Assembly: GCA_951406725.2 (NCBI GenBank)
Contig: OX597815.1
Span: 8,122,001-8,186,000, forward strand
Direction: 5' to 3'
DNA length: 64,000 nt
Origin: Octopus vulgaris
Lineage: Eukaryota
The notes under the pieces are model-generated. The model was not told the DNA's origin. It did not search any database and worked only from the letters and a program-made list of their open reading frames with translations. Position numbers and translations under genes: made by a program. Positions 48,321 to 49,193 of this stretch are shown in pieces; positions within the stretch are counted from its first letter, which is position 1, and each line of letters opens with the position of its first letter.

Positions 48321-49193
48321 AATTTCAACAATTGAGGGTAAAACTAATTAATTAATTATTAATCAATTTCACCAAGTGTTCAGTATGTAAAGGGACCATT
48401 TAAGGCGAATTCAAATTATTACATTATATAAAAGGGCTTAGTAAAATAAATTACTTTGCCACATACTGAACTCATTAGAAATAGCAGCTAAAAAAAACTT
48501 TTTTAAAACTATTTCTAATACTTAAAGAAAATCTCTCTCATATAGTGCTTGCTCAATTCAACTCACGAAAGTATTGGGGTAAAGACATTAAAAAATCAAA
48601 TGCAAAGGTTATTTGAGAACGTACGTTTCAAGATTAGTCAAACTCGACATTTCTATCATCAGCTCAGAACTCCTTGGTTTGGATCTGAAAACACTGAAAG
48701 TGGGAGCATACCCTTTCGGCTTCCTATCGCTTCTGAAGATCTGCTCGAAACTAACAGTGCAAGCATACCCAAAAAATGCAAGCGAAGAATTTCTGCTCTC
48801 CCCTTTCCACCAGCGTGGGTTAAAGTCAGCAAACGCTAAGCTTTTTCGGTAAATCCGAAACATTAAATAGAGAGAGATGAATTATAATTTCAACAATTGA
48901 GGGTAAAACTAATTAATTAATTATTAATCAATTTCACCAAGTGTTCAGTATGTAAAGGGACCATTTAGTCGAGTTTGACTAATCTTGAAACGTACGTTCT
49001 CAAATAACCTTTGCATTTGATTTTTTAATGTCTTTACCCCAATACTTTCGTGAGTTGAATTGAGCAAGCACTATATGAGAGAGATTTTCTTTAAGTATTA
49101 GAAATAGTTTTAAAAAAGTTTTTTTTAGCTGCTATTTCTAATGAGTTCAGTATGTGGCAAAGTAATTTATTTTACTAAGCCCTTTTATATAAT
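48321..49193 (-). mobile_element. retrozyme-like element: 565-bp unit x1.15 (82-bp direct repeat 48321-48402 / 48886-48967) plus a 226-bp inverted arm (48968-49193), in (TA)n
   Basis: Exact direct repeat at offset 565; the inverted arm mirrors 48423-48648; HHR on the minus strand. Confidence 0.87.
48614..48666 (-). ncRNA. type I hammerhead ribozyme motif
   Basis: Stem I UGAG/CUCA; CUGAUGA; stem II AGA/UCU plus GUC/GAC; GAAA; palindromic stem III ACGUACGU; GUU triplet. Confidence 0.75.

What the first reader, a model, noticed from the sequence alone, without database searches (positions are those of the whole stretch)
48321..49193. 565-bp unit copied 1.15 times plus an inverted arm: footprint of a circular template
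Seen: read on the minus strand, the insert begins with the last 82 nt of the unit, then gives one full 565-nt unit with an HHR, and ends at the shared CCCTCAATT terminus. A 226-bp inverted arm starting inside HHR stem II caps the 5' side, and all repeats look exact. Inferred: RT primed at the terminal motif, went once round a circle (or along a tandem transcript) and 82 nt beyond. This is an independent second family with the same mechanism as the 546-bp array.
Basis: partly seen in the sequence, partly recalled or inferred. Interest (0 to 1): 0.75.

Follow-up and report, generated by a model that had tools for sequence, protein, structure and literature searches.

The report
Two-armed Penelope-type hammerhead retrozyme insertion
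This is one young copy of a scattered, protein-less 565-base repeat that carries a predicted self-cutting RNA motif and sits in TA repeats as two back-to-back arms, a known kind of jumping element (retrozyme) that was likely copied by a Penelope-type enzyme from both ends of one DNA break, probably off a small RNA ring.

Summary
In detail: an exact 82-nt repeat at period 565, an exact 226-nt inverted arm, and a type I hammerhead fold. It is one copy of a dispersed non-coding family in (TA)n tracts (57 loci analysed). Arms vary from 59 to 7,654 nt, so it is not TRIM/LTR-like. The inverted arm is not a random 5' cap. Of 33 independent two-armed inserts with both ends at a fixed site, 32 have one end at site A and the other at site B, about 100 nt upstream. 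That is the Penelope 'tail' and matches its two RT start sites. A single template read repeatedly is favoured. Arms cross the ribozyme cut site without scars (139 of 139), and 25 substitutions are confined to one sampled locus yet present in every lap there, including one in this insert. Inherited changes avoid the ribozyme (1 of 51, p=0.02). No circle, cleavage or partner enzyme was shown. The class is published (non-LTR retrozymes, proposed Penelope passengers), and this scan has already reported the same anatomy for several other families in this genome. Verdict: new member of a known kind, moderate interest.

The parts
48318..48967 (-). Long arm (A arm), 650 nt = 1.15 laps of the 565-nt unit; its outer end is site A, joined to (TA)n
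48968..49196 (+). Inverted arm (B arm), 229 nt; starts inside hammerhead stem II, and its outer end is site B, joined to (TA)n. The junction with the A arm is blunt, with no overlap
48318..48402 (-). Terminal copy of the 85-nt redundancy; carries the locus-private base at 48344
48883..48967 (-). Inner copy of the 85-nt redundancy; carries the same private base at 48909
48593..48682 (-). Predicted type I hammerhead ribozyme: core at 48662, long interrupted stem I, short stem III with a palindromic loop, predicted cut between 48618 and 48617. It is the only complete ribozyme in this copy
   Evidence: no Rfam hit
48318..48419 (-). Tail of about 100 nt between sites B and A, present at one end of the insert only
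48337..48373 (-). 16-bp hairpin just upstream of CCCTCAATT (48330-48338); also present in sibling families and the 546 family; likely the element that the enzyme recognises
   Evidence: (z=-3.7, 0 of 200 shuffles)
48278..48320 (.). (TA)n target tract, left flank
49192..49320 (.). (TA)n then (TAGA)n tract, right flank
7256..9822 (+). Insert of the 546-nt family in the same window: identical laps plus an inverted arm, one A end and one B end, same tail design

Best explanation
This is a young copy of a non-coding 565-nt repeat with a predicted hammerhead ribozyme, inserted in (TA)n as two head-to-head arms that end at two fixed sites about 100 nt apart; it was likely written by a Penelope-type RT/endonuclease priming from both ends of one break on one RNA, probably a circle. 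Shown: the anatomy, the two fixed ends paired one of each, variable inner ends, read-through of the cut site, and one haplotype per insertion. Inferred: (1) copies with two or more ribozymes are transcribed, cut to monomers and ligated to circles, as shown for other retrozymes; (2) a Penelope protein, probably a dimer, binds the 3' hairpin/tail and cuts (TA)n; (3) one DNA end starts at site A and the other at site B, each runs upstream for a variable distance (650 and 229 nt here, up to many laps elsewhere), and the two cDNA ends are joined, mostly through 2-8 nt overlaps. This copy has one ribozyme, which its own inverted arm would pair up, so it is probably a dead end. Odds by step: retrozyme with Penelope-type insertion about 0.9, two-ended priming on one RNA about 0.8, circular template about 0.6.
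For: Ends: of 57 loci, 40 are two-armed: 33 A+B, 1 A+A, 0 B+B and 6 with one atypical end. Dropping one duplicated locus gives 32 of 33 (binomial p=4e-9 against 50%). 546 family: 14 A+B, 0 AA, 0 BB, 4 atypical among 18 two-armed of 23 loci. (TA)n on both sides at 51 of 57 loci. Of 90 canonical arms, 54 exceed one unit, 14 exceed two, and 75 cross the cut site. Lap junctions at the cut site are clean in 139 of 139, and inner ends do not pile up there (2 seen, 1.0 expected). One haplotype per insert: laps differ 0.59% within an arm, 0.89% between arms and 1.94% between loci (40 loci). 25 substitutions at 19 loci are confined to one sampled locus and present in every covering lap, 16 of them in both arms; shuffles give 0.07. 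One of these matches genome-wide at 8 places, all in its own array, on both arms. This insert has G at unit position 274 in both laps, while 155 laps at 60 other loci have A. Inherited variants avoid the ribozyme (1 of 51, 5.4 expected, p=0.023) and single-lap changes do not (16 of 133, 14.4 expected; Fisher p=0.044). The monomer folds far better than shuffles (z=-5.3, 30 shuffles). Literature: partial tandems, inverted 5'-truncated copy, one-ended tail and (TA)n bias in PLEs (PMC8557442, passages); two RT start sites, both strands extended, predicted dimer (PMC11167929, parts 1-2 of 4); circles in other retrozymes (PMC7229834, passages and section 17).
Against: No RNA evidence for cleavage or circles was obtained. 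The only in vitro PLE study found uncut RNA to be the dominant substrate and no reads ending at the cut site (PMC11167929). Only 1 of 9 Xenopus retrozyme dimers cleaved in vitro (bioRxiv 10.64898/2026.07.22.740005). The cleavage triplet here is GUU, and the active fold is 3 kcal/mol above the minimum-energy fold. No autonomous element with this tail was found among 43 of 150 scored GIY-YIG hits (6,136 candidates). 'Private' means private in the sample: two of three variants checked genome-wide also matched other loci; these proved to be other haplotypes. Parent arrays could be missing from this assembly. Arrays do rearrange after insertion: one duplicated locus has its centre flipped and one unit fewer, and 13 variants sit in some but not all laps, 4 of them in the longest array. 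Another 31 locus-variant cases are shared between loci yet polymorphic within a locus, and locus L013 is a mosaic. The ribozyme-depletion and spectrum tests are post hoc, with p of 0.02-0.04. Loci were chosen for holding a whole unit or the exact ribozyme, which inflates arm lengths.
Confidence: 0.6

Rival explanations
1. Same Penelope-type, two-ended insertion, but the template is an uncut linear read-through transcript of a tandem array. Long arrays are then enlarged and homogenised in DNA by unequal exchange. No circle is needed.
For: This is the route proposed for autonomous PLEs, where uncut RNA was the main substrate (PMC11167929). Li et al. favour local tandem expansion. Post-insertion recombination is visible (L020/L021; variants shared by 2-4 non-adjacent laps of the 13.7-lap array). 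Clean cut-site junctions fit this route equally well.
Against: It needs a homogeneous parent for each private haplotype (19 of 57 loci). For three long arrays checked, no other locus with the same haplotype turned up. Exchange in DNA does not readily fix a variant in both laps of a 1.15-lap arm, as in this insert. An uncut template gives no reason for inherited changes to avoid the ribozyme.
Confidence: 0.25
2. One reading: one priming event at the terminal motif, with the inverted arm made afterwards by the RT folding back onto its own cDNA and stopping where it can pair with (TA)n.
For: Both arms share private variants (16 cases). In this insert the B arm lies within the span of the A arm. 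Site B has TATATA-like letters that can pair with the target.
Against: The B arm is longer than the A arm in 11 of 33 A+B inserts (up to 3,307 against 133 nt), and 9 loci show only a B arm at alignment resolution. Purified PLE protein starts at two sites and extends both strands. Later flips between the arms could blur the lengths, so this is not fully excluded.
Confidence: 0.08
3. The template is a linear ribozyme-cut monomer, and the RT jumps from its 5' end to a 3' end at each lap.
For: It would also give one haplotype per insert. One arm (L043) starts exactly at the cut site after 7 unmatched bases.
Against: 139 of 139 lap junctions have no insertion or deletion, and inner ends are not enriched at the cut. 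That template jumps usually leave scars is recalled knowledge, not a call result.
Confidence: 0.05
4. A TRIM/LTR-like element with a fixed 82-bp repeat, a local DNA duplication, or an assembly artefact.
For: All repeats in this copy are exact.
Against: Arm lengths run from 59 to 7,654 nt at dispersed loci with the same two ends. 3,511 exact matches to a 26-nt tail motif genome-wide and 0 for the reversed control. The lap-to-lap joint also stands in contigs of public runs.
Confidence: 0.02

Closest known systems
Metazoan non-LTR retrozymes (Cervera and de la Pena 2020, PMC7229834: passages and section 17 read; Li, Clavereau and Pollet 2026, bioRxiv 10.64898/2026.07.22.740005: parts 1-3 of 5 read, supplements closed)
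   Same: Non-coding, AT-rich, strongly self-paired unit with a type I hammerhead in each lap; dispersed monomers to multimers; proposed circle intermediate and PLE mobilisation.
   Different: The unit of 565 nt is above the 170-400 nt circles shown in 2020 but inside the 51-972 bp range of the 2026 survey. The 2020 main text has no occurrence of 'inverted' or 'cephalopod'. Cleavage and circles are untested here.
Penelope-like elements: insertion anatomy (Craig et al. 2021, PMC8557442, passages) and PAc biochemistry (Frangieh et al. 2024, PMC11167929, parts 1-2 of 4)
   Same: Partial tandem (pseudo-LTR), inverted 5'-truncated copy, tail at one end only, (TA)n targets, two internal RT start sites, hammerhead in the repeat.
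   Different: No ORF. The tail is about 100 nt rather than 30-40. Both arms can run several laps. The near-strict one-A-one-B pairing is counted here, whereas the in vitro study saw no strand difference in start site.
Non-autonomous Chlamys/MRC1 PLEs (PMC8557442, passage)
   Same: Non-coding PLE passengers with multicopy head-to-tail insertions.
   Different: Those resemble their autonomous partners at the 3' end, and that clade lacks canonical hammerheads. No partner with this tail was found here.
L1 twin priming (recalled, not from a call)
   Same: Both target strands prime on one RNA and give an inverted segment.
   Different: Here the second site is fixed, and the first arm runs past it: inner ends are spread evenly over the unit, and the arms overlap in sequence.

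Membership tests
Metazoan non-LTR retrozyme | Tandem units, each with a type I hammerhead | tested here: met
   Core and adjoining stems match the consensus in 126 of 136 laps; arrays up to 13.7 laps; stems pair across subfamilies. Rfam models give no hit.
Metazoan non-LTR retrozyme | No protein, no LTRs, GC under 50% | tested here: met
   Longest stop-to-stop frame 97 aa; no tblastn match of a PLE protein in the family loci or the window; GC 38% at unmasked sites; terminal repeats vary in length. PBS and PPT were not searched for.
Metazoan non-LTR retrozyme | Two consecutive complete ribozymes ('active' definition of Li et al.) | tested here: inconclusive
   Not met by this copy, which has one. 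Met by other loci of the family.
Metazoan non-LTR retrozyme | Highly self-paired monomer | tested here: met
   Predicted only: circular fold -150 kcal/mol, z=-5.3 against 30 shuffles.
Metazoan non-LTR retrozyme | Self-cleavage in vitro | not testable with these tools
   Needs a transcription assay.
Metazoan non-LTR retrozyme | Accumulation as circular RNA | not testable with these tools
   Only contigs were available, and these cannot tell a circle from a tandem.
Penelope-like element, non-autonomous | Partial tandem plus inverted 5'-truncated copy | tested here: met
   40 of 57 loci are two-armed, and inner ends vary.
Penelope-like element, non-autonomous | Tail at one end only (two RT start sites) | tested here: met
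   32 of 33 inserts are A+B; the tail is about 100 nt, longer than the 30-40 nt described.
Penelope-like element, non-autonomous | Microsatellite / AT-rich target | tested here: met
   (TA)n on both sides at 51 of 57 loci.
Penelope-like element, non-autonomous | Ends homologous to an autonomous PLE in the same genome | tested here: inconclusive
   Intact RT + GIY-YIG elements exist (781-aa frames), but none of the 43 hits examined carried this tail; 6,136 candidates, 150 scored.
Penelope-like element, autonomous | RT plus GIY-YIG ORF | tested here: not met
   No ORF.
TRIM / LTR retroelement | Fixed-length terminal direct repeats | tested here: not met
   Arms of 59-7,654 nt with fixed outer and variable inner ends.

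The most novel reading that the evidence does not exclude
Each insertion records bidirectional rolling-circle target-primed reverse transcription: a Penelope dimer holds one covalently closed ribozyme RNA, starts at site A from one side of a (TA)n break and at site B from the other, and both polymerases run round the ring. A change made in that single RNA is copied into every lap of both arms, and a working ribozyme is selected because only cut and circularised RNA propagates. This would be genomic evidence for the proposed retrozyme circle intermediate and would explain the one-ended PLE tail.
Probability: 0.45. Interest if true: 0.7.

Novelty: new member of a known kind. Interest (0 to 1): 0.42.

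Why it matters
How Penelope-like elements make their tandem, inverted and tailed insertions, and whether animal retrozyme circles are really the copied template, are both stated as open in the papers read (PMC8557442, PMC7229834, bioRxiv 10.64898/2026.07.22.740005). A small, young, non-coding family with two mapped start sites, a defined 3' hairpin and locus-private markers gives a ready substrate for testing both questions. This locus is not special in itself: the class is published, and the scan has reported the same anatomy for several other families of this genome. What this family adds is the count of A+B pairing, a variant fixed in both laps of a 1.15-lap arm, and a weak signal of selection on the ribozyme at the template level.

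Tried and rejected
Rfam: nothing at the gathering score in the whole window, and only chance matches at E<=10 in the unit. RNA: no RNA holder on record was listed. Contigs of four runs, three guessed to be RNA, cover all 30 bins and show the lap-to-lap joint, but contigs cannot show starts, ends, strand or circles, so this is no evidence on expression. Partner search: GIY-YIG hits and their 3' ends and PLE fragments beside sibling copies showed other tails. The related tails near GIY-YIG hits (L105, L135) are separate short inserts. A CCCTCAATT just downstream of the GIY-YIG at L100 is not kept in its relative L142. Searches with the tail and the ribozyme as queries returned only non-coding copies and sibling subfamilies of 75-91% identity. 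The idea that the long arm stops at site B, as in L1 twin priming (it ends 17 nt short of it here), was rejected because inner ends are uniform. The idea that the start in stem II is meaningful was rejected on the same data. Private fixed variants are richer in T>C and A>G than single-lap ones (11 of 25 against 21 of 108, p=0.017); this hints at an RNA-stage or polymerase origin, but T>C dominates, so RNA editing is not claimed. The pair count used wrong columns and was discarded (redone). Rows left out of counts: L021 as a duplicate of L020; a hairpin self-match in L089; segments under 88% identity; about 95 homopolymer or AT-rich unit positions masked. Literature searches returned no paper describing a cephalopod retrozyme; most subscription papers and bioRxiv supplements are not covered.

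Full report
Observation. The insert lies between (TA)n tracts. The minus strand has a type I hammerhead core at 48662, with a predicted cut between 48618 and 48617. The long interrupted stem I appears in the free fold; forcing the active fold costs about 3 kcal/mol. Across five sequences of three subfamilies the stems pair in 94% of cells with one compensatory pair, which shuffles match in 41 of 500 trials. Rfam gives no hammerhead hit. The longest stop-to-stop frame is 97 aa.

Family. The window lies in a 2.8-Gb animal assembly; an earlier scan note calls it octopus, which I did not verify. The unit had 1,586 first-look candidates, of which 40 were scored. An exact 48-nt ribozyme pattern matched 74 places and added 17 loci. 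These 57 loci are my sample, and it is biased to copies holding a whole unit or the ribozyme. For one 27-nt marker, 22 of 25 loci genome-wide were in the sample. Sibling subfamilies of 75-91% identity exist, and a 26-nt tail motif matches 3,511 places, with 0 for the reversed control.

Anatomy. With the unit numbered from the cut site, outer ends fall at about 295-300 (site A) or 190-210 (site B). Forty loci have two head-to-head arms: 33 A+B, 1 A+A, 0 B+B and 6 with one atypical end; 17 have one arm (7 A, 9 B, 1 other). Without one duplicated locus, 32 of 33 are A+B (p=4e-9). (TA)n flanks both sides at 51 of 57. Arms are 59-7,654 nt; 54 of 90 exceed one unit and 75 cross the cut site; 95 inner ends are uniform over the unit (p=0.25). 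The two arms overlap by 2 nt or more at 24 of 39 junctions, but this insert's junction is blunt. The 546-nt family behaves alike: 14 A+B, no A+A or B+B, and 4 atypical among 18 two-armed of 23 loci. It shares with the 565 unit only the 3' hairpin and CCCTCAATT, and both tails fold better than all 200 shuffles.

One template per insertion. Laps differ by 0.59% within an arm, 0.89% between arms and 1.94% between loci (40 loci). Twenty-five substitutions at 19 loci are confined to one sampled locus and present in all covering laps, 16 of them in both arms and 13 in three or more laps; shuffling expects 0.07. Three were checked genome-wide. One matched only its own 8 laps. Two also matched one or two other loci, which turned out to be different haplotypes. 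In this insert both copies of the 85-nt overlap carry G at position 274, where 155 laps at 60 other loci carry A; a 91% sibling subfamily also has G. All 139 lap junctions at the cut site are free of indels. Variants inherited at the template level fall in the ribozyme once in 51 (5.4 expected, p=0.023), while single-lap changes fall there as expected (16 of 133). These tests are post hoc.

Against the circle. Nothing here shows RNA. The runs found were contigs with guessed type. Arrays change after insertion: L020 and L021 share flanks but differ by a flipped centre and one unit, 13 variants occupy some but not all laps, and L013 is a mosaic. A linear uncut transcript from parents absent from this assembly, plus local expansion, remains possible, and it is the route favoured for an autonomous PLE in vitro.

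Mechanism. Most likely: arrays with two or more ribozymes yield monomers that are circularised (inferred from other retrozymes). A Penelope RT/GIY-YIG protein binds the tail, cuts (TA)n and primes site A from one DNA end and site B from the other (inferred from PAc, which starts at two sites, extends both strands and is predicted to be a dimer). Each polymerase runs a variable distance, and the inner ends are joined. This copy has a single ribozyme whose 3' half would be paired by the inverted arm, so it is probably a dead end. Intact PLEs exist in the genome (781-aa RT + GIY-YIG frames) and also end in (TA)n, but none of the 43 GIY-YIG hits examined shares this tail, so the partner is unidentified.

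Comparison and verdict. The element meets the sequence criteria of metazoan non-LTR retrozymes (PMC7229834; bioRxiv 10.64898/2026.07.22.740005) and the insertion criteria of PLEs (PMC8557442); cleavage and circles are untested. Six searches returned no paper on cephalopod retrozymes; supplements of the 2026 preprint could not be seen. Earlier scan notes describe the same two-ended anatomy for 355-363 and 485-495 nt families of this genome; none matched this sequence. My reading was formed before those look-ups, and they are not independent support. New member of a known kind; interest 0.42; the bidirectional rolling-circle reading has probability about 0.45 and would deserve 0.7.

Noticed in passing
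window 21920-22310: A third hammerhead-bearing insert between (TA)n tracts: type I core at 22036 on the minus strand, with an inverted arm.
   Followed up: partly
L020 and L021 (G000:C9:28.70 Mb and 28.78 Mb): Two copies with the same flanks; one has the centre flipped between the arms and one unit fewer. This shows recombination after insertion, or a duplicated haplotype in the assembly.
   Followed up: partly
L031 (G000:C3:97077200-97087100): A 13.7-lap arm, the longest seen; four variants are shared by 2-4 non-adjacent laps, which suggests local duplication or conversion.
   Followed up: partly
L128-L133 (e.g. L130:2342-4687): A young Penelope-type family with many intact 781-aa RT + GIY-YIG frames, a CxxxCxxC linker (Neptune-like, label recalled), an upstream overlapping frame and a 3' end in (TA)n; its tail differs from the 565 unit.
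   Followed up: partly
L036, L097: Apparently one-armed copies carry a tiny opposite arm of about 11-13 nt matching the A end, so some one-armed inserts are also two-ended.
   Followed up: no
L011:1323-3194: The only A+A insert sits directly against an older sibling-subfamily insert; its short arm stops at site B.
   Followed up: no
window 27044-31042: About 4 kb of a diverged 52-bp tandem repeat with higher-order periods.
   Followed up: no
window 13754-14311 and 38914-39304: Tandem copies of a 174-183 bp dispersed repeat (SINE-like, label recalled).
   Followed up: no
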